Positions 1,238 to 48,438 of a stretch of 64,000 nt of DNA are shown piece by piece (position 1 is the stretch's first letter; each line of letters begins with the position of its first letter). Location of the stretch: the IMG/VR virus record IMGVR_UViG_3300022752_000013; one strand, written 5' to 3'. This DNA comes from a virus (lineage: Duplodnaviria; Caudoviricetes). Both the position numbers and the translations under genes were made by a program. The notes under the pieces are model-generated. The model searched no databases. It had not been told where the DNA came from and saw nothing but the letters and a program-made list of their open reading frames with translations.

Positions 1238-2223
1238 TAATTACGACATTTGATCAAGGCTGGGGACGTGAATACCCGCTCAAACAGTACGAGCAAGGTA
1301 TTGTGAGTGATCTTGTGAAACCGTTTGTTAAGAGTGATCAACGTGTGGTCATAATCAACAGCGTGTGGTACACTGGGGAAATGCACGAACAAGTGATGTT
1401 GTGGTTGCGTGAGAATGAGTGGGATCAGATTGTGTTGATTGCCATGTTGGATGCTGCCATACCCTATCCTGACCGCTATGAGGAATTTGGTCGTCCGGTC
1501 ACCGGTATAGGTTACTATCCGGGCGCAGGTCAAGTGGATTTTTGTGCATTATTTGTTGATCACTTTTTACAGGCCCCTGATAACACTGTATTGTTGGAGG
1601 TCAACACAATTGACACTGCATACATGTGTTTGAATCGAAAACCTCACTGGCACAGACAAAAACTATACAGCAAACTACAGGCCATGAATCTGGTCAATCA
1701 AGGCATTGTGAGCATGGGCGGCGACGGGCAGGCTGTAGTAGCATTGGCACAAGATCGAGATCACGACACCCTGGCACCCAATGCCACTAGCGATCATTAT
1801 GGTATACCCAACGATATTGTGAGTTTGGGACACCCGGGTAATTGGCAACGACACCTGCTCAATGTGGTCACTGAAACCTTTTACAACATAAATAGTTCAG
1901 GCTTTGTAAGTGAAAAAATCTACAAACCCATTGTGGGTTGCAGACCGTTTTTGGTATATGACCCAGATGGTGGCACACGTTGGTTGCGTGATCGAGGGTT
2001 TGAACCTTACACACAGGACTTTGAGGACATTTCGAATTTGGATCTGGCAGAACCACACAACCTACCCGGATTTCTAAAGGTTCTGTGTGAGCAAACACCT
2101 GCGTACTGGCAAAAGAAATTTGTTGACTTACAGGAAAAAATCCTATACAATCAGGCTCACTTTGCTGATTACGTCAAACAGCAACAATCTATAGTCGAAA
2201 AAGGAATACCATGCCCCATTTAG
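1234..2223 (+). CDS. GT10-like glycosyltransferase, paralog of 230-1237
   Basis: LNVVTETF...[19 protein letters not shown]; ATGA overlap with upstream gene. Confidence 0.5.
2123..2151 (+). promoter_or_regulatory. sigma70-type promoter for clpP, embedded in upstream gene
   Basis: TTGACT-17-TACAAT. Confidence 0.6.
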
Positions 2224-2807
2224 TGCCAATTGTGCTTGAACAAACTGCCAAAGGCGAGCGCAGTTACGATATCTACAGTCGTCTATTAAAAGACCGTGTG
2301 ATCATGCTGGACACAGAAGTGAGCGAACACACAGCCAGTCTGCTGGTAGCACAAATGCTGTTTTTGGAAAGTGATAACCCTGATAAAGATATTTCCTTGT
2401 ATATTAATTCGCCAGGTGGAAGTGTAACAGCGGGCATGGCCATTTATGATACCATGCAGTTTATTCGCTGTGATGTACAAACTATCGTAATGGGACAGGC
2501 CTGCTCCATGGGGTCGTTGTTGGCCACAGCAGGAGCCGCAGGCAAACGTATGATCCTGCCCAATGCCCGACACATGATTCACCAGCCATCAGGTGGTGCT
2601 TCAGGACAAGCCACAGACATCCAAATTCAAGCACGTGAAATTCAAAAGATGAAAGAGTATCTTACCAACATCTATGTCAAACACAACACAGCAGGCAAAG
2701 ACTACGATGTACTGAGTGCAGACATGGAACGTGATTTCTTCATGAGTGCCCAAGAAGCAGTGGACTATGGTTTAGCAGATCGAATCATCAATCAACGTGA
2801 CCAATAA
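2211..2807 (+). CDS. clpP: ATP-dependent Clp protease proteolytic subunit
   Basis: [29 protein letters not shown] (Ser), MIHQPSGG (His), MERDFFM (Asp). Confidence 0.97.
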
Positions 2808-4077
2808 TTTAAAAAACAATTTTTGTCCCAGCCCGTGGTTCCATATGAGAATCAACAATGCCGGGCATTATGAATACTGTCGTTGGGCGGCAACAGATCA
2901 ACGCTATTCTGCTGACAATATCTACAACATAACACCAGTTGAGTTTTTTCAACAACGCATGACCAGTGTTAGACAAGAGTTAGCAACAGGTAATTCACCT
3001 CCTGGTTGTGCAAAATGCACACAGATGGAACGTCACAACAAAATCAGCGGACGACAAAAACAACTGCTCAAAGCAGGTGTTAGACTTGAACATTTTGAAA
3101 AGACTCTAGCATCATCGCCGTGGTTGACAGAATTTGCCCAAGGTGGCGAGACAACACAAATGCCCCAGGATTGGCAAATAGATCTTGGCAACTATTGCAA
3201 CGGTGCCTGTGTATTTTGTAGCCCACATTCAAGTTCGCGCCTGGCGTCGGAGTTTAAAAAGATCGGCATCATCAATGATCTACCACCTGCAAACTGGACC
3301 GACGATCCTGTGCGGGTTCAACAGTTGGTTGATACCTTGATCTCAAGTTCACACATACAATACTTGCATTTCATTGGTGGTGAAACACTGATAACTCCCG
3401 CATTCAAAACCATACTTGAGGCTCTGATTCAAGCCGGCTTGAATCGCACGGCCACAATTGGGTTTACTACTAATCTAGGCGTATGGCGCGATGATGTGGT
3501 TGAACTGTTGACCCAATTCCAGGGAGTGAATCTTGGCATGAGTGTGGAGAGTTTTAAGATTGTGAATGACTATGTGCGTTATCCTGTGTGTTTGCCCACT
3601 GTGTTTGAAAGTATGGAACGTTGGTTAGAAATAAGTCAGCAACAAGATTGGTTAGTGCAGTTTAGAACCACGCCCACAGCACTCACAGTTGGTCACATGC
3701 TAGGAGTATATGAATATGCCTGGCACCACAACATTGCTGTGGAAAGTTGTAATTTTTTAAACAAGCCTGAGTGTTTGCGCCCATCAGTTCTGCCTCTGGA
3801 ATACAGACAACGCATTGTGTCCGACCTTGAAGCCTGGATAGACCAGCATCCGGTTGGCAGCGATGTGGTAGTAAACATTCGTGATCCAAATGTAGCCCAA
3901 CAACAAATTGTACAGGATCTACAGAGTTATGTGAATTATCTCAAGGCCGAATCGGATGAAAGTTGGCGTCTGCCAGACCTAGTTGAGTATTTGAAAAGAC
4001 TGGAAGCCAATCGTGGCAACTCAATTGTAACTTATTTGCCTGAATATGAAGAACTTTTTACAACTGCTGGATACTGA
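2797..4077 (+). CDS. Radical SAM protein with N-terminal SPASM/twitch-like Cys domain
   Basis: CNGACVFC (CxxxCxxC), FIGGETL, FTTN, N-terminal CPSPW...YC...CAKC. Confidence 0.88.
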
Positions 4078-4694: not shown

Positions 4695-4756
4695 CAAGAT
4701 TAGTACTCAAGTACTAATCTTGGGAGTTTGACTTGAAATACCCAAAGTGCTATAAT
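4695..4756 (+). promoter_or_regulatory. 13-bp perfect palindrome followed by sigma70 promoter
   Basis: CAAGATTAGTACT-CA-AGTACTAATCTTG, then TTGACT(4728)-17-TATAAT(4751) with TGn extension. Confidence 0.85.
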
Positions 4757-6297: not shown

Positions 6298-7367
6298 AAA
6301 TACGACTGATCGGTAAACGCAACAACTTGGGTATTGGCACCCATTTTGCAAACTTTGCAGATGCATTGAAACGTGTGAGTCACTGGGGTGCCTGTGTTGA
6401 AGAGTTTGATTGCGAAGATCCGCAGAGACTACTGGCCGAAGCACGTATCAGTGAACCAGGCGATATCAACATCTGTTTTGTGAGCATACCCTTGCAAGAT
6501 TACTTTAAAGGTACCAACATTCAATGGGTGGTGTTTGAAAGTACCCTAGTACCACCCACCGTGATGAGCACCATGCTCACCGCAGATCAAGTGTGGGTTC
6601 CTAGTGCCTGGGGTCAATCTGTGCTGATTGAAAATGGTCTGGATCCTGCCCGTTGTGAGATAGTGCCGGAAGGGGTGGATACAGATCGATATCATCCTTA
6701 TGCACCCAGAGTCAACAGTCCTATCTTGACCTATTTGATCACAGGCAAATATGAATTGAGAAAAAGCATCATAGAAACTGTGTATGCCTGGCACCAAGAA
6801 TTTGGCAATGATCCTGATGTTGAACTGGTGATCAAGACTGATCATTTCTTCAACAAAGAAGCCAAGTACAATGAACTCACTCAATGGATTGGGGAACTTG
6901 GCTTGACCAATGTGCGTGTGATGTGGGGCTCAGTACCAGCCAATGACATGGCAGATCTTTATCAACAGGCTCATGTGTTTGTGTTGCCCTCCAAAGGTGA
7001 AGGTTGGGGACTTCCGCTAATCGAAGCCGCGGCAGTGGGCCTGCCTATCATCACAACCTGGCACAGTGCTCACACAGAATTCTTGCAACACATACAATCC
7101 AGTGTGATAACAGTGGAATATGACATGGTGCCGGTTGCTTGTCAGGATTATCAGTTGTTCTACCCCACAACAGATGGCAATTGGGGCGAGTGGGCACAAC
7201 CCCGAATTGACAGCATAAGGCAAGCATTAAAAACCAGTCGACAAAGTTATACATATCTACAAAAAAGAGCCAGAGAAAACAGCCACATTATACGCAACAA
7301 CTTTTCCTGGGCACAGGTAGCAGACAGAGCCTTGCAGATACTGCAAAAACACGGGTTGCTAAAGTAA
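6294..7367 (+). CDS. Glycosyltransferase family 4 (GT-B)
   Basis: DQVWVPSAW, VPEGVD, FVLPSKGEGWGLPLIEAAAVGLPII, NFSW. Confidence 0.9.
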   Translation: MKIRLIGKRNNLGIGTHFANFADALKRVSHWGACVEEFDCEDPQRLLAEARISEPGDINICFVSIPLQDYFKGTNIQWVVFESTLVPPTVMSTMLTADQVWVPSAWGQSVLIENGLDPARCEIVPEGVDTDRYHPYAPRVNSPILTYLITGKYELRKSIIETVYAWHQEFGNDPDVELVIKTDHFFNKEAKYNELTQWIGELGLTNVRVMWGSVPANDMADLYQQAHVFVLPSKGEGWGLPLIEAAAVGLPIITTWHSAHTEFLQHIQSSVITVEYDMVPVACQDYQLFYPTTDGNWGEWAQPRIDSIRQALKTSRQSYTYLQKRARENSHIIRNNFSWAQVADRALQILQKHGLLK

Positions 7368-7445
7368 TACTTTAGTACTACTTTTTAAAAGATTGACTCA
7401 AAACCGTACTTTTGCTATAATAATGACATGTTAAGCAAAAAGGAG
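7361..7445 (+). promoter_or_regulatory. Palindrome + sigma70 promoter + conserved leader cassette
   Basis: AAAGTAATACT-TT-AGTACTACTTT; TTGACT(7393)-17-TATAAT(7416); ACATGTTAAGCAAAAAGGAG. Confidence 0.85.
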
Positions 7446-12615: not shown

Positions 12616-12993
12616 ATGAACTTAGAAACTATCATAGCCGCCATGTTTACCGGAGTAGGATTTGGTGTGATTGTGTTCTTGCTATTTGTTTGGATAATAT
12701 CTCGACGAATCCAGTTTCGGATTGATTCAGAAATATCGGGTGTGATAGAAAAATTAGCCCAGGATCGACTGATAGCACTCACGGTGGAAATTGACAACAA
12801 TCAGTACTTCTGCTACAATGCACTTACCAAAGACTTTGTATGCCAAGGCTACAGTTTGAAAGAAATCATAGAACGATTTCGTCTGCGTTATCCCGACAAG
12901 GCCGCCGCAATATATGACGGCGATGAAACAGCAGTACAGACACTCAAATCTCAAATGGATCAACTTGATAAATCAGACACAGTGCAATCTTAA
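12616..12993 (+). CDS. Membrane-anchored hypothetical protein
   Basis: N-terminal TM helix; AAGGA RBS. Confidence 0.7.
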   Translation: MNLETIIAAMFTGVGFGVIVFLLFVWIISRRIQFRIDSEISGVIEKLAQDRLIALTVEIDNNQYFCYNALTKDFVCQGYSLKEIIERFRLRYPDKAAAIYDGDETAVQTLKSQMDQLDKSDTVQS

Positions 12994-14074
12994 AGGCACC
13001 CAAAAATTATTTTTTATCCAGTTAAATCAGGCTGCCTCTTGTTGTAGAAGTAATCTTGAATCGTTGCCGGCTGACATGTCAGACTTGCTTGAGCATTGGC
13101 AACTGGAACATGATCAATTGACACAAGGCATTGCCGTTCAAAATTGTTCTGTTTGTTGGAAACAACAGGCCCAAGGTCATACATCTTGGAGACAACTACA
13201 CGGTCACCAGAATAACAACACCGTTGAACTGTGGTTGAACAATTCCTGCAATCAAATGTGTAGTTATTGTAGTCCAAAATTCTCTAGCACTTGGCAACAG
13301 AATATCATTGACCACGGACCTTTTGAAAATATCAGTAGCACAGCCAAATCCAATCTTGACCTGCCACCAATAGCAATAGATCAGCAACAGTGGATAGAAA
13401 AAATAGGTGAATATTTACAATCTCAACCTCCAGAATCAGTTGATCTAAAGTTGTTGGGCGGTGAGCCCTTGATGCAGATTCGAAATTTACAAAAATTAAT
13501 TGATCTTTCTGGTAATAGTATAAATCAACTGATGATAAACACCAATCTCAATCCTCCCAACAATCGATTCCTGCATTGGTTATTGGACACAGTGCCTGCT
13601 TACAAACTCAAATTTGAGATAAGTCTAGACGCCAGTCCCAAATATAATCATGTGCCAAGAGCAGGATTTGATCCAGAACGATTCCATACCAATTTAGAAT
13701 TGCTGATTGAAAAAAATATAAATTTTGGTTTTTTGTCGGTTATGAGTGTGCTGAGTATTTTTGACTTGCCCGACTTTACGAAATGGTCTCAACCATATCA
13801 AGTGGCATTTAACAAAATCAACAATCCGGATTGCCTGGACCCAATTTGGTTACCAATGGAAATCTTAGACCAAATAAACAACCAGTTTGAGCAAGAACCG
13901 CCAATGATTTTCCAAGAATTATACAACAAGCCGCAATCTTTGGTTGACCTAAAATTGTTTGAGCAGTATAATTACTTGTGTCAGTATTTTTCTAGAACTG
14001 GCATAAACATCAAACAAATCGATAATCTCTTGTTCCAACAATATTGGACTTGGCTAGAAGAAAGACAAAAATGA
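12914..14074 (+). CDS. Radical SAM protein (start uncertain)
   Basis: CNQMCSYC, LLGGEPL, INTN, SCC...CSVCW N-terminal Cys cluster. Confidence 0.85.
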   Translation: MTAMKQQYRHSNLKWINLINQTQCNLKGTQKLFFIQLNQAASCCRSNLESLPADMSDLLEHWQLEHDQLTQGIAVQNCSVCWKQQAQGHTSWRQLHGHQNNNTVELWLNNSCNQMCSYCSPKFSSTWQQNIIDHGPFENISSTAKSNLDLPPIAIDQQQWIEKIGEYLQSQPPESVDLKLLGGEPLMQIRNLQKLIDLSGNSINQLMINTNLNPPNNRFLHWLLDTVPAYKLKFEISLDASPKYNHVPRAGFDPERFHTNLELLIEKNINFGFLSVMSVLSIFDLPDFTKWSQPYQVAFNKINNPDCLDPIWLPMEILDQINNQFEQEPPMIFQELYNKPQSLVDLKLFEQYNYLCQYFSRTGINIKQIDNLLFQQYWTWLEERQK

Positions 14075-18704: not shown

Positions 18705-18733
18705 TTGACAACTTAATCCTGTGGTGTTATACT
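18705..18733 (+). promoter_or_regulatory. sigma70 promoter
   Basis: TTGACA-17-TATACT. Confidence 0.75.
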
Positions 18734-19094: not shown

Positions 19095-19739
19095 ATGGCA
19101 ACTCTACAACAAGTTTGTGATTATAATCGGGCTCAGGTAAATTGGATCAAACTGTATTCAATGATCGATACTCTCGGCACAACCATGAACGGAAAAAAAG
19201 ATCGGTTTGACAAAAGCGATCTCATTGAGATGGGCATGGACATCTATAGTAATGGAGGAATCAAACTTGTAAATCTTGATGGTGTGGACCACGAACTGGT
19301 AAACTTGCCAAGCGCAAAAGGCCTACCAACCACACAGGAAATGAAGTTTGATAGCAAACTTTTTTACAAAATGATTAGTGTCCAACGTGCCAATCGACGT
19401 CGAGGAATCGAAGGCCGGAAAGAATTGCAACGATCAAATGATCCTGTCACGCTAAAATTGGTCAACACACAGGGAGAGAACAATTACACTGAGTTGCCAG
19501 ATACATACGCAGAATTTTTACTAGCGGCAGACAACCATAGTGCTCATGTGATCGAGGTTGCCACATTGAAGCCGTATTTGAAATTTCCTAATGATGGAAT
19601 CACAGCAGTCAACGTTCCATCAAACTTGTTTATGCAGGTGGTTGGCCCAGACGATATCACTGCCAGGCAGCCCCTGGCAAATTTCAACTACAAACAAGAG
19701 AAGTTGGCATTTCAAAGAAACTTTTTAAACAAGTTCTAA
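19095..19739 (+). CDS. PD-(D/E)XK restriction-endonuclease-like protein
   Basis: DLIEMG...DGVDH...TQEMK arrangement of acidic residues and Lys. Confidence 0.5.
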   Translation: MATLQQVCDYNRAQVNWIKLYSMIDTLGTTMNGKKDRFDKSDLIEMGMDIYSNGGIKLVNLDGVDHELVNLPSAKGLPTTQEMKFDSKLFYKMISVQRANRRRGIEGRKELQRSNDPVTLKLVNTQGENNYTELPDTYAEFLLAADNHSAHVIEVATLKPYLKFPNDGITAVNVPSNLFMQVVGPDDITARQPLANFNYKQEKLAFQRNFLNKF

Positions 19740-19740
19740 A

Positions 19741-19788
19741 GTAGTACTTTAGTATTAGATTGACAACGACCGAGTTTTGCTATATAAT
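19741..19788 (+). promoter_or_regulatory. Palindrome + sigma70 promoter
   Basis: TAGTACT-TT-AGTATTA 2 nt before TTGACA(19760)-17-TATAAT(19783). Confidence 0.8.
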
Positions 19789-19794
19789 AGAAAC

Positions 19795-19847
19795 TGTTGG
19801 GTAGGCATAGTGCCTACTAACACTTAACCAATCCTGTATTGTACAGG
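19795..19847 (+). promoter_or_regulatory. Structured 5' leader with two hairpins
   Basis: TGTTGGGTAGGCA-TAG-TGCCTACTAACA and CCTGTA-TTG-TACAGG. Confidence 0.6.
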
Positions 19848-19863
19848 TAAAGAAGGAAAAATT

Positions 19864-20916
19864 ATGGCACAGAAACGCCTCACACGTAAACTTACGGATG
19901 TGATTGCTGAAGTTGAAACTCAACTACGAGCACACTACGGTGTAACCCAAAAAGATCTCGATGCATGGCGAGTCCGTGCAAAGGCTTTATCACACCGATT
20001 TCCCACTAGTTCAATGATTGCTATTGAAGACCTTTGGATTGATTATGAAGTCCAACGTGATGTCTTGCACAAGCACATTATTAATATCATTCGGAAATGG
20101 GATCCACGCATTTGTAGTCCTGGTTCTGCTTGCCGCTTTGGCGGAAAACCTCCGATCTATTTGTATGATGCACAACACCGTACCATTGCGGCCGGACTGC
20201 TAGGCTATACTGAAATTCCGTGTGCTGTAGTAGAAACAGATGAACTTAATTTTGCAAGTTATGCATTTGAACTGCTCAATGACACAGGCGTCAAACGATT
20301 AACTCCGGGGGATTTGCATCGCAATGCCTTGGTGCGTTTTAAAAATGGCAGCGGTGATAAGAAAGTTGTGGATGCCCGCACCATGCAGGATCAATTTGAT
20401 ACCGCAGGTATTGACTTGCAAGACAAAGGATCACGTGCGTCAGACAACTTGCGTGGTGACAATGATTACTTCTTTAGTCACTTTAAGTATGCACAAAAAG
20501 GCATTGAGATTGATGACAGTGGCAAAATACTTTTAGAAATTTTAACTGCAATCAAAGACACGTTTCCACTGCAAGAAGAAATTGATCAAGGTTGCTACAT
20601 TGGATTATACGAACTGCATCGTATCTCGAGCAATAGTGCCAACAGCAAACTACCAACAGGATGGATGAAGGCAGTACTTGAAGCAATCAAGCCCACGTTC
20701 AAGAGTTCCTCATTGATACATACCAAGGCTAAAATACAATGGGATTATGTAAACCCTGGTGCTACTTGGTCAGCCCCTAGTGCTATGTCTAACTTTTTAC
20801 GTGAGTTATACATCCGTAATAGTGGCAAGATTAATTTACCATACCACGGTGAAGGTGCCAAGATGGGTATCGAAGAAGGCAACATTGCCCCAGGCTTGTT
20901 TCCTGAAGGAGCATAA
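19864..20916 (+). CDS. ParB/Srx-fold DGQHR (DUF262/DndB-like) protein
   Basis: Three motifs in order: VQRD, YDAQHR, FELLNDTG. Confidence 0.7.
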   Translation: MAQKRLTRKLTDVIAEVETQLRAHYGVTQKDLDAWRVRAKALSHRFPTSSMIAIEDLWIDYEVQRDVLHKHIINIIRKWDPRICSPGSACRFGGKPPIYLYDAQHRTIAAGLLGYTEIPCAVVETDELNFASYAFELLNDTGVKRLTPGDLHRNALVRFKNGSGDKKVVDARTMQDQFDTAGIDLQDKGSRASDNLRGDNDYFFSHFKYAQKGIEIDDSGKILLEILTAIKDTFPLQEEIDQGCYIGLYELHRISSNSANSKLPTGWMKAVLEAIKPTFKSSSLIHTKAKIQWDYVNPGATWSAPSAMSNFLRELYIRNSGKINLPYHGEGAKMGIEEGNIAPGLFPEGA

Positions 20917-20917
20917 A

Positions 20918-21382
20918 ATGAATTTCATGATTGAAAATTTATTGGGTAAGCAAGCAGATAAAAAGGTTACCTTTGCTCAGGCATTTAAAACTTTGCTAGA
21001 TATGGACTTGATCAACATTGGCGAAGTAGGCGAGCAGACTATTAGTAATGCCAGTGGTGTTGAAAGATGTCCTCGCAATACCGCTAAAATTGATTTAGTA
21101 TCAGGTGTGCAAATTAAAACCGCACAAACCCATCCTGACAAAGAAAAATTGCAGGCGTATTTTGCACCAGGTAACACCAACGCCCCAATATTGTTAATGG
21201 TAATAGAAAGATTAACTGGAAAAGAGTACTTTTTCTTTTTTCAATATAAAGATTACAAAAATACAATCGGTTCTAGTGTTTGTCTACCGTTTTTCTTGGA
21301 TGGAACCCCACGTCGATCTAACAGTTGGTGGGATTACGAAATTACATTCGATGAACTTTGTAAGTTAGCAAAAAATGATTAA
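20918..21382 (+). CDS. Putative PD-(D/E)XK nuclease
   Basis: AAGGAG RBS; GEVGE...IDLVSGVQIKT (E...D...QxK). Confidence 0.45.
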   Translation: MNFMIENLLGKQADKKVTFAQAFKTLLDMDLINIGEVGEQTISNASGVERCPRNTAKIDLVSGVQIKTAQTHPDKEKLQAYFAPGNTNAPILLMVIERLTGKEYFFFFQYKDYKNTIGSSVCLPFFLDGTPRRSNSWWDYEITFDELCKLAKND

Positions 21383-21938
21383 TCTTAAAGAATCCTTAGA
21401 CCAATTCACAGCACCGGTGTACGGCAAAACCAAACGCACCGCTGACACTTATCAGACGGTAGCCGACTATTGTCGCCGCAACTTGGTTCGCTTGGTTGCT
21501 GACTATCATGCCGTTCAAAACGATCAACAACTGCTGAGAGAGATCCGCAACGACATTGACACATATCTACGCAGGTATCACGAGTACTGTATCCAACAAC
21601 GTGATGGTATGAAAGCACACTACCACGAAATTGGAGCGGATGAAGAATGTGATTTTGAGCATTTGATTCCAGCGGCTCGTATTCGTGACTTGCTTTTGGC
21701 CAGTGCCATTTCTGTAGAGCAGGCTCTCAATGCACCAACTGTGAGGTTGAGTCGTTCCAAACACATGGCTCTTAAGGAAGCAGGTTGGGCCAGTACCACT
21801 CCAGACATGTGGCAACCGTTTAGGCGTTACACTCAAGTGTTTGACGCTAAGTACGAAACACATGATGGAACACCAATTGACCCCGAAACTTGGACCTTGC
21901 AACAGCACTTTGACTATTTCAAGCATCTTGTGCTTTAA
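21375..21938 (+). CDS. His-Me/HNH-like protein with DUF1524-type EHxxP motif
   Basis: CDFEHLIPA...PTVRLSRSKH; PFRRY. Confidence 0.5.
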   Translation: MINLKESLDQFTAPVYGKTKRTADTYQTVADYCRRNLVRLVADYHAVQNDQQLLREIRNDIDTYLRRYHEYCIQQRDGMKAHYHEIGADEECDFEHLIPAARIRDLLLASAISVEQALNAPTVRLSRSKHMALKEAGWASTTPDMWQPFRRYTQVFDAKYETHDGTPIDPETWTLQQHFDYFKHLVL

Positions 21939-22023
21939 AAAAGTAATACTCAAGTACTACTTTTTGCCCGGTTGACCAATATCTACCAAAATGCTATAAT
22001 ACGGCATGTTCAGCAAAAAGGAG
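21937..22023 (+). promoter_or_regulatory. Palindrome + sigma70 promoter + conserved leader cassette
   Basis: AAAAAGTAATACT-CA-AGTACTACTTTTT; TTGACC(21972)-17-TATAAT(21995); CATGTTCAGCAAAAAGGAG. Confidence 0.88.
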
Positions 22024-22265: not shown

Positions 22266-22691
22266 TTGCTTTACTTTGCTTATGGCATGAATACCAATCG
22301 TAGAGGTATGGCCCAGCGATGCCCTGGTGCATTGAGTCTGGGTCACGCTCGCCTGATCGATTACTCGTTTAGATTTGCCATCCACGCTGACGTGGTCAAA
22401 TGCAAAGGCTCCTATGTGGATGGGGTGCTGTGGACCATTGATGATTTTCACTTGAACAGCCTGGATCGCCTGGAAGGTTATCCTCTCTACTACAATCGCC
22501 GTGCCCTGCGTGTGGCACACGAAGATCGTGTTGTGATGGCCGAAACTTACTACATGCAACCCGGCAACTTGGATAACCTTCCAGGGCAGGGATATTTTGA
22601 CATGGTGGTCGAAGGCTACAAGGAGCACAACGTGCCCACAGAACAACTGTTTAATAATGTATACGAAAGTACTACATTTGTAAAAGGTTGA
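22266..22691 (+). CDS. Gamma-glutamylcyclotransferase (AIG2-like)
   Basis: LYFAYGMN, QRCPGA, LDRLEGYP..Y. Confidence 0.88.
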   Translation: MLYFAYGMNTNRRGMAQRCPGALSLGHARLIDYSFRFAIHADVVKCKGSYVDGVLWTIDDFHLNSLDRLEGYPLYYNRRALRVAHEDRVVMAETYYMQPGNLDNLPGQGYFDMVVEGYKEHNVPTEQLFNNVYESTTFVKG

Positions 22692-22741
22692 CCAATAATC
22701 ACCAAAATGCTATAATACGGACATGTTCAGCAAAAAGGGAG
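22659..22741 (+). promoter_or_regulatory. Near-duplicate of the 21937 cassette (degenerate left arm)
   Basis: AGTACTAC; TTGACC(22688)-17-TATAAT(22711); CATGTTCAGCAAAAAGGGA. Confidence 0.85.
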
Positions 22742-27942: not shown

Positions 27943-28256
27943 TGCCTTTCAATCTGCCTGTCACAATCATTGCCATTCGTGACTACATTACCAACAGCCT
28001 GGCAACTCTTTCAGCAGACACTCTGGGCTGGTTGTCGGTCATAGTGTTGCATTGTGCAACCCTGCCCAGTTTCTTGGCCTTGATGACCGGACTGAGCGAT
28101 AAAACTCCGGGTCTGGACATGATCTTTTTCTTGTGGAGTGGCCTGATCCTGCTGTTCCTACGGGCAGTGGTGCTCCGGGACATGTTGAACATCATCACAA
28201 TTGGGTTTGGATTTATACTGCAAGCAGGATTCATGGCCCTGATCCTGTTTAAGTAA
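27942..28256 (+). CDS. Small 3-TM membrane protein (PQ-loop/SemiSWEET-like topology)
   Basis: Three hydrophobic helices; ATLP in TM1. Confidence 0.55.
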   Translation: MPFNLPVTIIAIRDYITNSLATLSADTLGWLSVIVLHCATLPSFLALMTGLSDKTPGLDMIFFLWSGLILLFLRAVVLRDMLNIITIGFGFILQAGFMALILFK

Positions 28257-29179: not shown

Positions 29180-29511
29180 TGGACTTGTATACAATCTGGG
29201 CAGATAAACAAGGTGACATCACTGACTTGGAATGGGTCAACGGAATGAAGAGTTTCTTTGATCACCTAATCTCAGAAGGTAAAATGGAGACGTACAGAAT
29301 TACCAGATGCAAGATGGGATTCCGTAGCATAGCAGACATGCCAGAATGGATGATCATCATGGAGTTTAAGGACATGGGTCAAATGGATTCAGCGTTCCGT
29401 CGTGTGGCTCCACTGGAAGGCGAATTGGAAGTCAAGCACAAAAGTTTCAACCAGTTTGTTTCGGGCAACATACAACACGCCTTGTTTAGAGACTGGCCCG
29501 ATCAGTTCTAG
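29179..29511 (+). CDS. DUF6614-like ferredoxin-fold protein
   Basis: MDLYTIW...YRITRCKMGF...EW.I.MEF...FRDWPD. Confidence 0.6.
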   Translation: MDLYTIWADKQGDITDLEWVNGMKSFFDHLISEGKMETYRITRCKMGFRSIADMPEWMIIMEFKDMGQMDSAFRRVAPLEGELEVKHKSFNQFVSGNIQHALFRDWPDQF

Positions 29512-29554
29512 TACTTTGGTATTACTTGACTAGGAATCATGTTTCTGCTATAAT
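29509..29554 (+). promoter_or_regulatory. Palindrome + sigma70 promoter, leaderless transcript
   Basis: TAGTACT-TT-GGTATTA 1 nt before TTGACT(29526)-17-TATAAT(29549); ATG 6 nt later. Confidence 0.8.
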
Positions 29555-31057: not shown

Positions 31058-32623
31058 ATGTATCATGTAAAATTAAATGATTCAACTGCTCGAGTACTAT
31101 TCCTTGGCAACAACAATGAATCTACAGATCATCAAGTGTCAACTCTGGCAACAGAACACGACATTGTCAATCATGGACTAGTAATCGAATCTAAGGTTGT
31201 TCATGACCAACCAGGATTTTATCATACCACTGTGGTAGACATTCCCTGGGGCGATTTAATTTCATTTGCATCAAAATTTGATTTGATTGTCATGTTAGAT
31301 CAGCCGCAGGCTCAATGGAGTCATTGGAAATGCATGCAGGCCACATTTAAGTTAATGGTCAAACTGGAACAAATGGGGTGTGATACTGTATTTCGTAACA
31401 ATAAAAATATTAAAAAAATCTTATATTGGTCCGACTTGGTGTACAAAGAAAACAAAAGTTTTTGTATATACCCATGGATTAATTTCTTCAATGACGGAAA
31501 AGAACTTAGATTATGTTCACGTGCTGACACTGCGGTGACCAAAATTGATCAATTTCAAGACTGGAAGTCTGATCCTAATTATACCCAAATTCGCGATTCA
31601 ATGTTACAAGGTCACAAACTGCCAGAACATTGCAAAGTGTGTTATGAGTATGAAGATCATGACATTGAAAGTTACAGGCAATTTGAAACCATGGACTGGG
31701 CAGTGCAATTGGATTTAGAAACAGTTGAAGATCTGGAGAAAATTCAACACCCTTATTTTTACGAAATTCACACAGGTAATCATTGCAACATCAAATGTAG
31801 AGGTTGTCAACCAGCGTTCAGTGAGCCCATTGGTAAAGAATTAAAAAAATTCAATATTGTCACACCCGGTACCATGATGTGGACTCCCAGCACGTCAACT
31901 CTAGATCAAATCAGCATAGACGACTTAGACAGCAAATCTACTGTTTATTTTCAAGGCGGCGAACCCACGATCATGCCAGAAGTTCTGGACTTTATGAAAC
32001 AGTGCATCAAGAAAAATCAGACAGATTTCAATCTCACCATGTGTACCAACGGAGTAAAATTTTCTGACGAATTTTTAGAAACAGTTTCGCATTTTCCCAA
32101 CACCAATTTTAGTTTCAGCATTGATGGGTACGCCAAGGTCAATGACTACTGGAGATCAGGATCCAAATGGGACCGAGTCATAGCAAATGCACACATGATA
32201 CAGAATCTTGGTCATTCTGTCAGTATTAACACTGTGCCGGGTATTTACAATGTGACCAACTTGCATCTGTTGTTTGAATTTTTAGATCGTGAATTCCCGT
32301 TTACTGCTATCTATCTACAAATCAATTACCTGGCTTGGCAGTCAGCATTCAATCATCCTCGTCAAGATCTAGTAGTTGAATCCATGCTCAAATGCATGCA
32401 GACATCTGTGTATCATTCCAATGGTAAAAGTTGCAAAAGTGGTATAGACAGCATTTACAATCATTACAACAATAATCCAGTTTGTGACCTCAAAGATCTC
32501 AAAGATTTTTTTGCATACAACGATCAGTTGGACCGTGCTCGCGGCACAAAACTAGCAGATTACATACCTGAATTAGAGGCCGCAAGAAGTTACATTTTGG
32601 AACTCAATCATGAAACCATGTGA
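31058..32623 (+). CDS. Radical SAM / twitch-domain protein with N-terminal extension
   Basis: FCIYPW...LCS...HCKVC; CNIKCRGC; FQGGEPT; CTNG; FSIDG. Confidence 0.88.
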   Translation: MYHVKLNDSTARVLFLGNNNESTDHQVSTLATEHDIVNHGLVIESKVVHDQPGFYHTTVVDIPWGDLISFASKFDLIVMLDQPQAQWSHWKCMQATFKLMVKLEQMGCDTVFRNNKNIKKILYWSDLVYKENKSFCIYPWINFFNDGKELRLCSRADTAVTKIDQFQDWKSDPNYTQIRDSMLQGHKLPEHCKVCYEYEDHDIESYRQFETMDWAVQLDLETVEDLEKIQHPYFYEIHTGNHCNIKCRGCQPAFSEPIGKELKKFNIVTPGTMMWTPSTSTLDQISIDDLDSKSTVYFQGGEPTIMPEVLDFMKQCIKKNQTDFNLTMCTNGVKFSDEFLETVSHFPNTNFSFSIDGYAKVNDYWRSGSKWDRVIANAHMIQNLGHSVSINTVPGIYNVTNLHLLFEFLDREFPFTAIYLQINYLAWQSAFNHPRQDLVVESMLKCMQTSVYHSNGKSCKSGIDSIYNHYNNNPVCDLKDLKDFFAYNDQLDRARGTKLADYIPELEAARSYILELNHETM

Positions 32624-36765: not shown

Positions 36766-38985
36766 ATGGCAGATACAACCATATCGGGATTAACCAATAC
36801 CAACACCATCGATGGTGCTACAGTAGTCCCTGCTGACTACAGCGGCGCAACTTACAAGGTAACAGCAAACACTCTAGGAAGTTTTATAACAACCAATGCG
36901 GTGACTGTGACTGCTACTGGCAATATCACCGGTGGTAATTTGCTCACAGGTGGACTGATCAGTGCCACTGCCAACGTGACTGGTGGTAATATAAGAACTG
37001 GCGGATTGATTAGTGCTACTGCCAACATCACCGGCGGTAATTTGCTCACAGGTGGATTGATTAGTGCTACAGGCAATATTACAGGTGCTTACATTGTGGG
37101 CAATGGGTCATTATTGACTTCAATTCCAGCAGGTAATATCACTGGACAAGTTGCCAATGCATTGGCTGCTGGCACAGTGTATACCAACGCACAACCAAAC
37201 ATTACTAGTGTTGGTTCTTTAACTTCACTCACAGTTAGTGGCAACACACAGTCAGGTAATTTACTGACTGGAGGCTTAGTATCAGCCTCGGGCAATGTGA
37301 CTGGTAACTATATTTTTGGTAATGGCGCTTGCTTAACAGGCGTTATCACTTCGGTCGCTAATATCAATTCAGGCACATCAAACGTCACAGTGGTAAGTTC
37401 AGGCGGCAACATCAGTGTTGGTGTAGGCGGAACATCGAATGTAGCAGTATTTGCCACCACAGGCGAGTATGTAACAGGTATAGTCAGTGCCAGTGGCAAC
37501 ATCATATCATCAGGCAACGTGTCAGGTGGTAACTTGTCAACAGGTGGCCAAATAAGTGCCAGCGGTAACATAAACACATCTGGATATTTTGTGGGTAACT
37601 TTGCCGGCAATATTTCTGGTAACCTAACAGTTCCTGGGTCAAACACACAGGTACTCTTTAACTCTAATGGTAATGCAGGTGCCGCCTCCGGATTGACTTT
37701 TGCGTCAGATACTAATTTATTGAGTGTCACCGGCAATGTCTTGGCCAACAATGGCATGTTTACCAACGTTGTGAACGTGGCCAGTCATACAGGTGCCGTG
37801 GTGAGTGTCACAGGCAACGTCACAGCCAACAATGGCATGTTTACCAACGTTGTGAACGTGGCCAGTTTCACTGGTGGTCTTGTTTCTGTTACAGGTAACG
37901 TCACAGCCAACAACGGCATATTCACTAACATTGTGAACGTGGCCAGTTTCACTGGTGCCGTAGTATCAGTAAGTGGTAACGTAACTGGTGGCAACATCTT
38001 GACCGGTGGGCTAATAAGTTCAACCAGTACCATAACCGGCACAAGTTTCTTGGGTGCAGTAGTATCTACAACTGGCAACATTACCGGTGGAAACGTCACT
38101 CTAGATACAGGCACAGGCAATTTATATGCACACGATGCATCTTTTGGTGGAGTCGTAAGTGCCACTGGCAACATATCTGGTAGTTACATCCTGGGTAATG
38201 GTGCTTTGTTAAGCGGAGTTATCACTTCAGTTGCTAATATCAATTTGGGTAATAGTAATGTTACTGTGGTCAGTTCTGGCGGCAACGTTGCAGTTGGAGT
38301 TGGCGGAACATCGAACGTAACTGTGTTTGCTACTTCAGGTGCATACGTAACTGGTATAGTAAGTGCATCGGGTAACATCACAGGCGGTAATATTGTTACG
38401 TCCGGTGCCGGCGGAGCAATTTCAGGCTCGGGTAATATCACAGCCGGTAATTTCTTAACAGGTGGACTGATCAGCGCCACTGGTGCTATCACAATCAATA
38501 GTGGTAATGCTGCCACTGCCATTATAAATGGTGCCGGCAATGCAGTGGGCAATATCGGATCATCCAGCAAGTATTTCAATCAGGTGTTTGCTCAAGCAAC
38601 CACAGCATTGTATGCTGACTTGGCTGAGGTATACTCAGCAGATGCTGAGTACGCTCCTGGTACTGTGGTGAGTTTTGGCGGCGATCAAGAAGTTACAAAA
38701 TCTATCACACCCAGCGACCCAAGAGTGGCTGGTGTAATATCAGAGAAGCCCAGTTACTTGATGAACTCAGGACTTGATGCTGAGCACCGTGCCGCAGTGG
38801 CTCTAACCGGGCGTGTGCCAACCCTGGTTATTGGTCCGGTGCGCAAAGGCGACATGATGGTATCTGCTGGCAATGGATGGGCACAAGCCTGTACAACACC
38901 AGCAATGGGAACCGTGATTGGTAAAGCACTTGTAAACTTTAATGGTGATTCAGGAATAATTGAAATAGTTGTAGGAAGAATGTAA
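36766..38985 (+). CDS. Tail fibre/spike protein 2, paralog of fibre 1
   Basis: Same repeat units and C-terminal YADLAE...GRVP domain. Confidence 0.8.
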   Translation: MADTTISGLTNTNTIDGATVVPADYSGATYKVTANTLGSFITTNAVTVTATGNITGGNLLTGGLISATANVTGGNIRTGGLISATANITGGNLLTGGLISATGNITGAYIVGNGSLLTSIPAGNITGQVANALAAGTVYTNAQPNITSVGSLTSLTVSGNTQSGNLLTGGLVSASGNVTGNYIFGNGACLTGVITSVANINSGTSNVTVVSSGGNISVGVGGTSNVAVFATTGEYVTGIVSASGNIISSGNVSGGNLSTGGQISASGNINTSGYFVGNFAGNISGNLTVPGSNTQVLFNSNGNAGAASGLTFASDTNLLSVTGNVLANNGMFTNVVNVASHTGAVVSVTGNVTANNGMFTNVVNVASFTGGLVSVTGNVTANNGIFTNIVNVASFTGAVVSVSGNVTGGNILTGGLISSTSTITGTSFLGAVVSTTGNITGGNVTLDTGTGNLYAHDASFGGVVSATGNISGSYILGNGALLSGVITSVANINLGNSNVTVVSSGGNVAVGVGGTSNVTVFATSGAYVTGIVSASGNITGGNIVTSGAGGAISGSGNITAGNFLTGGLISATGAITINSGNAATAIINGAGNAVGNIGSSSKYFNQVFAQATTALYADLAEVYSADAEYAPGTVVSFGGDQEVTKSITPSDPRVAGVISEKPSYLMNSGLDAEHRAAVALTGRVPTLVIGPVRKGDMMVSAGNGWAQACTTPAMGTVIGKALVNFNGDSGIIEIVVGRM
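37744..37975 (+). repeat. Three 81-bp (27-aa) tandem units within fibre 2
   Basis: GCCAACAA(T/C)GGCAT at 37744, 37825, 37906. Confidence 0.88.
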
Positions 38986-47879: not shown

Positions 47880-48438
47880 TGCCGACGGCGTTATCTTAGA
47901 TTGGGAATATGCCTTCTCAGTCTGGATGGAAGAGCATGGCTTTGTGAGAACTGAAGGCAGTCAGTTCATGTATGATATAGGACAACGCTACGGAATTGAC
48001 CATGAACAAGGTCGCAAGTTGATTAAGATTTTTAACGAATCGGCTGCCATTGGTTTTTTGCCTCCATTACGTGATGCCATGTATTATGTCAAACGCTTGC
48101 ACGAAGAACACGGTTACGTATTTCACTGTATTACCAGTCTAAGTCTTGATGCCAACGCCGGCAAACTGAGAGAAATGAATCTACGTAAGTTATTTGGAAA
48201 AACTGCATTTGAACGCATTGTGTGTTTGGACACCGGTGCAGACAAGAATGATGCATTGAGTGAGTATCAGAATTCTGGTTGTCACTGGATTGAAGACAAA
48301 CCGGAAAATGCTGAAGTTGGACTAGATTTAGGTTTACGTAGCATCCTGATGGAGCATGGGCATAATATGAATCATGTCAACGAACAAATTCCGGTAGTCA
48401 AAAACTGGCGAGAAATTTACGAAATCGTCACCTCCTAA
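47824..48438 (+). CDS. HAD-family 5'(3')-deoxyribonucleotidase-like
   Basis: LVDADGVILDW, CITS, WIEDK..N. Confidence 0.85.
   Translation: MSNLKKPQKYNPKQLILVDADGVILDWEYAFSVWMEEHGFVRTEGSQFMYDIGQRYGIDHEQGRKLIKIFNESAAIGFLPPLRDAMYYVKRLHEEHGYVFHCITSLSLDANAGKLREMNLRKLFGKTAFERIVCLDTGADKNDALSEYQNSGCHWIEDKPENAEVGLDLGLRSILMEHGHNMNHVNEQIPVVKNWREIYEIVTS

What the first reader, a model, noticed from the sequence alone, without database searches (positions are those of the whole stretch)
19095..21938. Four-gene nuclease island resembling a split GmrSD type IV restriction module carried by a phage
Seen: PD-(D/E)XK-like gene (19095); ParB/Srx-fold protein with QR, DAQHR and FxxxN motifs (19864); second PD-(D/E)XK-like gene (20918); EHLIP His-Me-like gene (21375). 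The last three are coupled and lie between two palindrome-promoter cassettes; no methyltransferase is adjacent. Known: DUF262 (QR/DGQQR/FxxxN) plus DUF1524 (EHxxP) form GmrSD, which cuts modified phage DNA; DGQHR proteins also occur in Dnd/Ssp systems. Inference: an early modification-dependent or NTP-gated nuclease complex against host DNA or co-infecting modified phages.
Basis: partly seen in the sequence, partly recalled or inferred. Interest (0 to 1): 0.8.

Follow-up and report, generated by a model that had tools for sequence, protein, structure and literature searches.

The report
Phage ParB-like plus HNH-like gene pair
Only two of the four genes form a real unit: a ParB-like nucleotide-binding protein and a small, probably HNH-type nuclease that stay together in uncultured lake and marine phages, built like the GmrS/GmrD restriction enzyme but belonging to no described family.

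Summary
The four ORFs, their motifs and the two flanking palindrome-promoter cassettes are all present. The "four-gene island" is not one unit.

**The conserved unit.** It runs in this order:
- a consensus sigma-70 promoter
- conserved leader hairpins
- gB (19864-20916), with a ParB/Srx fold and the motifs QR, D(A/G)QHR and FxxxN
- a variable slot
- gD (21375-21938), with an invariant (E/D)H..P motif and a probable His-Me finger

**Evidence for the pair.**
- gD follows gB in 61 of 61 related viral contigs.
- The pairing also holds in three distant lineages, one of them marine.
- Both genes have dN/dS of about 0.05.
- A complex prediction gave weak support (0.50 against 0.00 for the best control).

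**The other two genes.**
- gC is a small restriction-enzyme-like gene. In relatives its slot is empty or holds unrelated HNH, EndoVII-like or homing endonucleases.
- gA belongs to the upstream transcription unit. It carries D..ExK, sits beside an N6/N4 methyltransferase in distant phages, and is absent from five complete relatives.

**Family membership.** GmrSD membership is not met. The GmrSD_N and GmrSD_C models and PADLOC find nothing.

**Best reading (0.5).** An early NTP-gated ParB-like/His-Me nuclease pair used in host takeover or phage-phage conflict, organised like split GmrS/GmrD.

First readers of this scan had already noted the same pair in at least four other genomes.

The parts
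18705..18733 (+). Sigma-70-type promoter (TTGACA-17-TATACT) of the upstream unit that holds the 111-aa gene and gA
   Evidence: 11 of 12 matches. It places gA in a different transcription unit from gB-gD.
19095..19739 (+). gA (P0001, 214 aa). Sporadic accessory gene, probably an orphan type II restriction-endonuclease-like PD-(D/E)XK protein. Not part of the conserved pair.
   Evidence: Invariant D65...E82-x-K84 in 21 homologues. Homologues are followed by an N6_N4 methyltransferase in L065/L066, L067 and L070/L071. Absent from 63 related loci and from 5 complete relatives. No Pfam, PHROG, PADLOC or NCBIfam hit.
19738..19750 (.). Palindrome AAAGTA-G-TACTTT containing AGTACT, just after the gA stop and upstream of the -35 hexamer
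   Evidence: Sequence read. The AGTACT-plus-promoter pattern has 7 overlapping matches at 6 sites in the window, 0 expected.
19760..19788 (+). Consensus sigma-70 promoter TTGACA-17-TATAAT of the gB operon
   Evidence: 12 of 12 matches. Most related loci shown carry a TTGACA-type promoter at the same place.
19795..19822 (+). Leader hairpin 1, apex GCA-UAG-UGC
   Evidence: leader MFE -19.5 kcal/mol, z -2.16
19833..19847 (+). Leader hairpin 2 (CCUGUA-UUG-UACAGG), just 5' of the ribosome-binding site
   Evidence: The apex YA-UNG-UR recurs 43 times in 49 non-redundant leaders, with covarying stems. 45 of 129 strict hairpins in 646 kb of loci fall in the 200-nt leader windows.
19864..20916 (+). gB (P0002, 350 aa). 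ParB/Srx-fold domain at about residues 48-132 with QR, D(A/G)QHR and FxxxN..G..L..D..RN motifs, followed by an all-helical C-terminal domain. Predicted NTP-binding subunit.
20918..21382 (+). gC (P0003, 154 aa). Small restriction-endonuclease-like gene in a variable insertion slot; most likely a selfish, mobile nuclease gene.
   Evidence: PLM neighbours Bsp6I, PvuII and MamI, 0.91-0.94. Conserved E39, D59, Q65-x-K67. In relatives the slot is empty (14 loci) or filled by unrelated HNH, EndoVII-like or homing endonucleases. A gC-like gene occurs without the pair in L064.
21375..21938 (+). gD (P0004, 187 aa). Helical hairpin plus a probable beta-beta-alpha-metal (His-Me) core: beta 92-96 ending in E95-H96, beta 122-126, helix 127-135 with H130. 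Predicted nuclease subunit.
21938..21965 (.). Inverted repeat AAAAAGTAATACT-CA-AGTACTACTTTTT at the end of the operon. Terminator-like; contains the AGTACT palindrome.
   Evidence: Sequence read; pattern. The simple terminator scan did not list it because the stem is AT-rich.
21972..22000 (+). Promoter of the next unit (TTGACC-17-TATAAT)

Best explanation
The real feature is a self-contained early operon.

**Anatomy.** A host-type sigma-70 promoter and a leader with one or two conserved hairpins drive gB. gB has a ParB/Srx fold with a DGQHR-type phosphate-binding motif and a helical C-terminal domain. gD is a small protein whose invariant (E/D)H..P strand, second strand and following helix look like a His-Me (HNH-type) nuclease core.

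**Proposed mechanism.** The two proteins form a complex. Nucleotide binding or hydrolysis by gB gates DNA nicking or cleavage by gD, as in two-protein GmrS/GmrD. The phage would use this early in infection against host DNA or the DNA of competing phages.

**The other two genes.** gC is an unrelated, probably mobile restriction-enzyme-like gene that landed in the gap between the partners, where relatives carry homing endonucleases. gA is a separate, sporadic restriction-endonuclease-like gene.

**Shown:** gene order and coupling, co-occurrence, purifying selection, the ParB/Srx fold, the motifs, the promoter and the leader hairpins.

**Inferred:** NTP binding, the nuclease fold and activity of gD, complex formation, and the target.
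For: - **Co-occurrence.** The gD homologue follows the gB homologue in 61 of 61 loci with downstream DNA. The two abut or overlap in 14 loci.
- **Distant lineages.** The pairing persists where gD identity is only about 28%: L074, marine L075 and L076.
- **Selection.** dN/dS is 0.05-0.11 for both genes.
- **gB fold and motifs.** ParB/Srx fold. The QR, D(A/G)QHR and FxxxN triad is invariant. PMC4619093 describes this triad as the signature of DGQHR/GmrS domains and places it at the Srx-like NTP site.
- **gB relatives.** Viral DUF6551 ParB-like proteins are the nearest by shape and features. They bind CTP or ATP according to 10.1101/2025.10.10.680097.
- **gD model.** High-confidence model with a beta-...-beta-alpha layout around E95-H96.
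- **gD superfamily.** Across 45 members, (E/D)95 and H96 are invariant and P99 is in 44 of 45. Helix position 130 is D, N, H or E in 39 of 45.
- **Complex prediction.** Score 0.50 against a best control of 0.00. Runs agree in at least 94% of contacts and partner pLDDT is at least 89. The mark was reached by 58 of 80 solved complexes and 2 of 110 mismatched pairs, but a pass at 0.60 or under is rated weak.
- **Early promoter.** 12 of 12 consensus matches.
- **Cassette replacement.** A different ParB-like cassette sits between 82-84% identical flanks in L068. This fits a conflict-type locus.
Against: - **No sequence link.** Neither protein, nor 45 members of the gD superfamily, matches any Pfam, NCBIfam, PHROG, PADLOC or PDB entry.
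- **Missing structural Asn.** The Asn typical of HNH and GmrD is not conserved: N119 in 12 of 45 members.
- **Weak complex score**.
- **No fusion.** No fused gB-gD protein appears among 149 representative clusters.
- **Lone gD relatives.** Some lack a ParB-like neighbour: L072 and L077.
- **Possibly essential role.** Very strong conservation and the use of the site by homing endonucleases would also fit a replication or regulation function rather than conflict.
Confidence: 0.5

Rival explanations
1. One reading: all four genes form one modification-dependent (type IV, GmrSD-like) or NTP-gated nuclease complex.
For: All four look nuclease-related or ParB-like. gB, gC and gD are translationally coupled. 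gA homologues lie within one or two genes of other ParB-like DGQHR-type proteins in L065, L068 and L070.
Against: gA has its own promoter and is absent from 63 loci and 5 complete genomes that carry the pair. gC is missing from most relatives; its slot is empty or holds unrelated homing endonucleases. A gC-like gene occurs without the pair. The GmrSD HMMs do not match.
Confidence: 0.07
2. gB is a ParB-type CTP/NTP-dependent DNA clamp or transcriptional regulator, and gD is a non-catalytic partner that modulates it, as KorA does for KorB. The operon would then control gene expression or DNA organisation rather than cut DNA.
For: KorB, Noc and ParB are the top Foldseek matches, including the KorB-KorA co-complex 8qa9. 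The Atlas shape search lists ParB_N+HTH_ParB proteins after the viral clusters. A conserved leader element suggests autoregulation. DndB, the archetypal DGQHR protein, is described as a repressor in 10.1101/2025.10.10.680097. The nuclease fold of gD is not proven.
Against: gB carries the DGQHR motif, not the GERRxRA box of clamps. The invariant (E/D)H..P, the D/N/H position in the helix, and R151, Y152 and H178 in gD look catalytic. The leader stems covary while the loop is constant, which fits RNA rather than a double-stranded parS-like site.
Confidence: 0.2
3. gB is a DndB/DpdB-like accessory ATPase of a DNA-modification pathway, and gD helps to insert or read the modification.
For: DGQHR motif triad (PMC4619093). 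Other ParB-like paralogues in related phages lie next to DNA methyltransferases. The window holds three radical-SAM proteins and a glycosyltransferase.
Against: No modification enzyme is coupled to the pair in 61 loci. DndB and DGQHR HMMs give no hit. No N6_N4 methyltransferase exists in five complete relatives.
Confidence: 0.1
4. gD is not a DNA nuclease but an RNA-directed or purely structural helical protein (for example HEPN-like), and the pair acts on RNA, perhaps on its own leader hairpins.
Against: No Rx4-6H motif at the invariant positions. These matches rank below the HNH-type ones and within helical noise.
Confidence: 0.05

Closest known systems
GmrS/GmrD (GmrSD) type IV restriction enzymes, including BrxU (PDB 7p9k) and related SspE-type proteins
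   Same: A ParB/Srx-fold protein with QR, DGQ(Q/H)R and FxxxN motifs is paired with a protein carrying a hydrophobic-(E/D)-H-x-x-P strand of a His-Me nuclease. The pair is encoded as two adjacent, co-evolving genes (motifs as listed in PMC4619093).
Viral DUF6551 (PF20188) ParB-like proteins
   Same: Nearest named clusters to gB by language-model features (0.96-0.97) and by shape (TM 0.51/0.53 and 0.39/0.52). Phage-borne, of similar length. Members bind CTP or ATP (10.1101/2025.10.10.680097).
   Different: The PF20188 HMM gives no hit on gB or on its relatives. Its control also did not ring, so the genome test is uninformative. No partner nuclease has been described for DUF6551 proteins.
DGQHR domain / DndB (TIGR03187, PF14072)
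   Same: The motif triad QR, DGQHR and FxxxN on a ParB/Srx fold.
   Different: The HMMs give no hit at E <= 1. There are no dnd or ssp genes nearby.
KorB-KorA, ParB and Noc CTPase clamps
   Same: Same N-terminal fold; they are the top Foldseek hits. A small partner protein sits in the same operon.
   Different: gB lacks the GERR arginine box. gD has no HTH and carries invariant His and Asp/Glu residues that look catalytic.
Phage T5 SciA endonuclease (PDB 9qgx)
Free-standing homing endonucleases of T4-like phages (Seg and Mob type), for gC and its slot
   Same: A small nuclease-type gene sits between two conserved, otherwise abutting genes. Relatives carry HNH, EndoVII-like and homing-endonuclease PHROG members at the same site.
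   Different: gC itself matches no PHROG. It resembles small type II restriction enzymes (Bsp6I, PvuII) only by language-model features. Mobility is inferred from its distribution, not shown.

Membership tests
GmrSD (type IV restriction) | N-terminal or GmrS part matches DUF262/GmrSD_N (PF03235) | tested here: not met
   hmmscan of gB and of 7 divergent relatives gives no hit at E <= 1. A six-frame search of 5 complete relatives gives 0 hits while 9 of 14 control genomes ring.
GmrSD (type IV restriction) | Motif triad QR, DGQQR, FxxxN on a ParB/Srx fold | tested here: met
   Q64-R65, D101-(A/G)-Q-H-R105 and F135xxxN139 are invariant in 26 orthologues. The fold is confirmed. The central motif is the DGQHR variant rather than DGQQR.
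GmrSD (type IV restriction) | C-terminal or GmrD part matches DUF1524/GmrSD_C (PF07510) | tested here: not met
   No hit for gD or for 45 superfamily members at E <= 1. 0 of 5 relatives ring while 6 of 14 controls ring.
GmrSD (type IV restriction) | GmrD motifs (I/L/V)(E/D)H(I/L/V)xPQ, L(G/A)NLxLLxxxN and NxxFxxKK (PMC4619093) | tested here: inconclusive
   The first motif is present: F-E-H-L-I-P, with (E/D)H invariant and P in 44 of 45. The second and third are not recognisable; N119 occurs in only 12 of 45. Helix position 130 is D, N, H or E in 39 of 45.
GmrSD (type IV restriction) | His-Me (beta-beta-alpha-metal) fold of the nuclease part | tested here: inconclusive
GmrSD (type IV restriction) | NTP-dependent cleavage of modified (glc-hmC) DNA | not testable with these tools
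   Needs biochemistry.
GmrSD (type IV restriction) | The two parts co-occur and act as one enzyme | tested here: met
   Co-occurrence in 61 of 61 loci and in three distant lineages. The complex prediction gives only weak support: 0.50 against a best control of 0.00.
ParB/Srx fold superfamily | ParB/sulfiredoxin-type N-terminal domain | tested here: met
DGQHR domain / DndB (TIGR03187, PF14072) | HMM match | tested here: not met
   No hit at E <= 1 in Pfam or NCBIfam.
DUF6551 (PF20188) | HMM match | tested here: inconclusive
   No hit on gB or on 7 relatives. The genome search gave none, but its control rang nowhere. DUF6551 clusters are the nearest named ones by features and by shape.
Type II restriction endonuclease, PD-(D/E)XK (for gA) | Catalytic D...(D/E)xK and a cognate methyltransferase next door | tested here: inconclusive
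   D65...E82-x-K84 is invariant. An N6_N4 methyltransferase follows the homologue in 3 other phage contexts, but none is in this window. The fold was not modelled.
Free-standing homing endonuclease or mobile nuclease gene (for gC) | Sporadic presence at a site between conserved genes that other nuclease genes also occupy, plus a nuclease fold | tested here: inconclusive
   Slot occupancy and sporadic distribution are met. The nuclease fold rests only on language-model neighbours and a D...QxK pattern.
Known anti-phage defence systems (PADLOC-DB) | Match to any defence-system protein model | tested here: not met
   0 families at E <= 1 for all four proteins.

The most novel reading that the evidence does not exclude
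gB and gD would be the founding members of an undescribed, widespread phage system. A DGQHR-type ParB-like NTPase licenses a new branch of His-Me nucleases with the signature Y..(E/D)H..P...P..SK..D...RY...DH. The conserved YA-UNG-UR leader hairpins would be the system's own RNA operator, keeping a dangerous nuclease under autoregulation. The locus would act as an exchangeable conflict cassette in T4-like lake and marine phages.
Probability: 0.2. Interest if true: 0.7.

Novelty: new variant of a known kind. Interest (0 to 1): 0.5.

Why it matters
**Scale.** The pair is abundant in uncultured freshwater and marine phages.
- gB has 1070 homologue clusters at 90% identity.
- gD has 149 clusters at 50% identity.
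- The stretch is found in runs from 14 studies.

It is absent from all 50,697 deposited phage records and from every curated family library searched.

**If the mechanism holds.**
- It would extend the ParB-NTPase plus HNH principle, known from bacterial type IV restriction, to an offensive or competitive tool that phages carry themselves.
- It would define two new protein families.
- It would add a new cis-regulatory RNA hairpin.

**Annotation.** The finding also shows how a homing-endonuclease landing site can make a two-gene unit look like a larger island.

Tried and rejected
**Searches that found nothing**
- Pfam, PHROGs, PADLOC and NCBIfam on the four proteins.
- PDB sequence and profile searches with gB, gD, A1, A2 and A5.
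- Pfam on 45 gD-superfamily members and on 8 ParB-like relatives.
- blastn and tblastn against 50,697 phage records with the region, gB and gD.
- Foldseek on the PDB for gD. The pdb_via second look gave helical noise only.

**Tests with a negative or unusable outcome**
- A fused gB-gD protein was sought among 149 representative clusters; none was found.
- No whole genome is held for this window.
- MAFFT plus RNAalifold on the leaders failed because the hairpins fall in two registers. It was replaced by an anchored scan.
- The literature search for SciA gave nothing useful.

**Ideas considered and rejected**
- gA as part of the module: see the distribution data.
- A double-stranded parS-like operator in the leader: the stems covary while the loop is constant.
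- gD as a HEPN protein: there is no Rx4-6H motif.

**Weak result, recorded as such**
- Complex prediction gave weak support only: 0.50 against a best control of 0.00.
Full report
**What the window is**

All long ORFs run on the + strand. The window has no tRNA genes and no nucleotide match among deposited phages. Relatives in IMG/VR are contigs of 330-357 kb, five of them 95-100% complete. The stretch occurs in lake and freshwater metagenomes, in runs from 14 studies. This is an uncultured jumbo phage.

**Check of the observation**

- gC starts one base after the gB stop, and gD overlaps gC by 8 nt.
- The gB motifs (Q64-R65, YDAQHR at 100-105, F135xxxN139) and FEHLIP in gD are present. They are invariant or nearly so in 26 orthologues; many relatives read YDGQHR.
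- A perfect TTGACA-17-TATAAT promoter at 19760-19788 precedes gB. TTGACC-17-TATAAT at 21972-22000 follows gD.
- Both promoters are preceded by an AGTACT-containing palindrome. That combined pattern has 7 overlapping matches at 6 sites in the window, against 0 expected.
- gA lies upstream of the first cassette and is served by another promoter at 18705-18733.

**The conserved unit is two genes, not four**

A scan of viral contigs found 63 loci with a gB homologue of 56-92% identity.
- In all 61 loci that extend downstream, a gD homologue follows.
- In 14 loci the two genes abut or overlap. In the rest, a gap of 195-1120 nt holds one or more inserted genes.
- gA is in none of the 63 loci and in none of five complete relatives.
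- A gC relative lies between the pair in only four loci and, as a partial copy, upstream of gB in two.
- In L064 a gC-like gene sits between homologues of the window's flanking genes with no pair present.

**The slot between the partners is a landing site for mobile nuclease genes**

The inserts in relatives fall into many unrelated types. Eight of ten types tested hit PHROG families annotated as HNH endonuclease, endonuclease VII or homing endonuclease, with E down to 2.7e-44. Pfam gives weak HNH and NUMOD3 hits. First readers of this scan saw a GIY-YIG-like gene at the same place in other genomes.

gC matches no PHROG. Its nearest named language-model neighbours are the small restriction enzymes Bsp6I, PvuII and MamI, scoring 0.91-0.94. 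Its family conserves E39, D59 and Q65-x-K67. I read gC as a selfish nuclease gene, not as a subunit.

Contigs from two RNA libraries cover gB and gD but not gC. One contig joins 20903 to 21500, as expected from a relative without the insert. DNA carry-over in those libraries cannot be excluded.

**gA**

The family has 75 clusters at 48-100% identity and an invariant D65...E82-x-K84. In three different phage contexts (L065/L066, L067, L070/L071) the homologue is followed within 1-31 nt by an N6_N4 DNA methyltransferase. That arrangement is the signature of a restriction-modification pair.

The window holds no such methyltransferase. Here gA looks like an orphan restriction-endonuclease-like gene. 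Whether its methyltransferase lies elsewhere in the genome could not be checked, because no whole genome is held.

In L065, L068 and L070 the gA homologue lies within one or two genes of a distant ParB-like DGQHR-type paralogue. Some link between these gene kinds is therefore possible. It is not a link to the gB-gD pair itself.

**gB**

The AF2 model (pLDDT 79) has a ParB/Srx domain at about residues 48-132 and a helical C-terminal domain.
- The Foldseek top 44 PDB hits are nearly all ParB, Noc, KorB or sulfiredoxin (E from 1e-2, probability up to 1.0).
- AFDB clusters named ParB/Sulfiredoxin reach E 2.6e-6.
- By language-model features and by shape, the nearest named clusters are viral DUF6551 or ParB_N proteins. 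Only 1 of 100 feature hits is a GmrSD_N cluster.

A recent survey reports that phage ParB-fold/DUF6551 proteins bind CTP or ATP, and that a DndB-like protein binds ATP and GTP (10.1101/2025.10.10.680097). The QR, DGQHR and FxxxN triad is what PMC4619093 describes as the signature shared by DGQHR (DndB) and GmrS domains, with DGQ(Q/H)R aligned to the Srx nucleotide-binding motif. NTP binding by gB is thus a well-founded inference, not a result.

**gD**

The model is confident (pLDDT 92.6). It shows a helical hairpin (23-74), then strands 83-85 and 92-96 (the latter ending in E95-H96), two short helices, strand 122-126 and helix 127-135.

A profile search of 1.84 billion representatives found 149 clusters, almost all stand-alone proteins of about 180-200 aa. 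None is fused to a ParB-like domain.

Across 45 members at 19-57% identity:
- invariant positions are Y83, (E/D)95, H96, R151, Y152 and H178
- R66, P99 and P121 are each conserved in 44 of 45
- helix position 130 is D, N, H or E in 39 of 45
- N119 is not conserved (12 of 45)

No Pfam or PDB sequence match exists for any member.

Structural evidence points to His-Me nucleases but is weak.
- AFDB hits at E 5.6e-5 to 9e-3 are uncharacterised proteins plus one named HNH endonuclease.
- Four of the seven Atlas rows that carry a Pfam family are HNH families. The first of those four is GmrSD_C, at TM 0.39/0.46.
- Foldseek on the PDB found nothing. The second look returned helical bundles only.

I put the His-Me assignment at about two in three.

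**Are the two proteins partners?**
- Strict co-occurrence, and frequent overlap of stop and start codons.
- The same pairing in distant lineages. L074 has a 396-aa ParB-like protein with QR, EGQH and FxxxN. Marine L075 scores E 2.6e-118 to the gB profile. L076 scores E 6e-95.
- Equal and strong purifying selection, dN/dS about 0.05 at dS about 1.
- A complex prediction of 0.50 against a best control of 0.00. Runs agree in at least 94% of contacts, and partner pLDDT is at least 89. The mark was reached by 58 of 80 solved complexes and 2 of 110 mismatches, but a pass at 0.60 or under is rated weak.
- Against this, two distant gD relatives have no ParB-like neighbour: L072 and L077.

**Regulatory anatomy**

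Most relatives shown have their own TTGACA-type promoter upstream of gB. The leader carries one or two hairpins.
- In 49 non-redundant leaders, 43 hairpins have the apex YA-UNG-UR (CA-UUG-UG 18, CA-UGG-UG 11, and others). Their stems differ and covary.
- With a strict definition, 45 of 129 such hairpins in 646 kb of loci (both strands) fall within the 200-nt leader windows, which are about 1% of the space searched.
- The window's leader folds into both hairpins (-19.5 kcal/mol, z -2.16).

Conserved loops with covarying stems fit an RNA element better than a double-stranded operator. Its ligand is unknown; autoregulation is a guess. Similar hairpins occur elsewhere in the window, for example at 28046-28060.

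**Conflict cassette or core gene?**

In L068 the flanks are 82-84% identical in DNA to the window, gA included. Yet the promoter-bounded cassette is replaced. It holds a different ParB-like protein of 377 aa (26% identity over the core, with IQR, DAQH and FxxxN), a 102-aa GIY-YIG-like gene and a 70-aa gene. There is no gD relative.

Exchange of non-homologous but analogous cassettes between near-identical flanks is typical of conflict loci, while each version stays under strong purifying selection. This tips me towards host takeover or phage-phage competition. It does not prove that role.

**Comparison with what is known**

The organisation matches two-protein GmrS/GmrD. Membership is not met.
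- PF03235 and PF07510 find nothing in the proteins or in five complete relatives, while their controls ring.
- PADLOC finds nothing.
- The GmrD motifs beyond (E/D)HxxP are missing.
- DndB and DGQHR HMMs also fail. The test for DUF6551 is inconclusive.

I class the pair as a new variant of a known kind: a ParB/Srx NTPase paired with a His-Me nuclease, made of two families that no library describes.

**Verdict**

Interest is 0.5: the pair is widespread, uncharacterised and readily testable, but its principle is already known from bacteria. First readers of this scan had already noted the same pair in at least four other genomes.

Noticed in passing
window 19795-19847, and leaders of L001-L060: Conserved leader hairpins with apex YA-UNG-UR and covarying stems lie upstream of nearly every gB orthologue. 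This is a candidate new cis-regulatory RNA. Similar hairpins occur elsewhere in the window (1925-1939, 28046-28060, 48208-48230, and 6563-6581 on the - strand).
   Followed up: partly
window 4702-4756, 7374-7421, 19743-19788, 21953-22000, 22668-22716, 29510-29554: An AGTACT palindrome followed by a near-consensus sigma-70 promoter recurs at 6 sites (7 overlapping matches, 0 expected). These sites bound short gene cassettes.
   Followed up: partly
L068:5722-7380: A close relative has 82-84% identical flanks and includes gA. It replaces the whole gB-gC-gD cassette with a different ParB-like 377-aa gene, a GIY-YIG-like 102-aa gene and a 70-aa gene.
   Followed up: partly
L065:8001-10819; L067:8001-9507; L070:3237-6465: gA homologues are directly followed by an N6_N4 DNA methyltransferase. 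In L065 and L070 they also lie next to distant ParB-like DGQHR-type proteins of 390 and 423 aa. This could be a phage restriction-modification module linked to ParB-like genes.
   Followed up: partly
L076:1349-1984: In one distant lineage the slot between the gB and gD orthologues holds a 211-aa gene with a CTP_synth_N (PF06418) hit. That is curious next to a protein of the ParB CTPase fold.
   Followed up: no
L053-L055, L058, L062: 7032-7616: In one subclade the slot holds a 195-aa gene that starts with an SGNH-hydrolase-like GCSHTAG motif. It has no Pfam or PHROG hit.
   Followed up: no
window 2797-4077, 12914-14074, 31058-32623; 38985-41594: Three radical-SAM-domain proteins lie in one 64-kb window. 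An 869-aa protein has a He_PIG Ig domain and a weak match to S8 peptidases of Sinorhizobium and Agrobacterium jumbo phages.
   Followed up: no
window 19846-20170 and 21387-21604: Contigs from two metatranscriptome libraries, one freshwater and one marine, cover gB and gD or their relatives but not gC. One contig joins 20903 to 21500. DNA carry-over is not excluded.
   Followed up: partly
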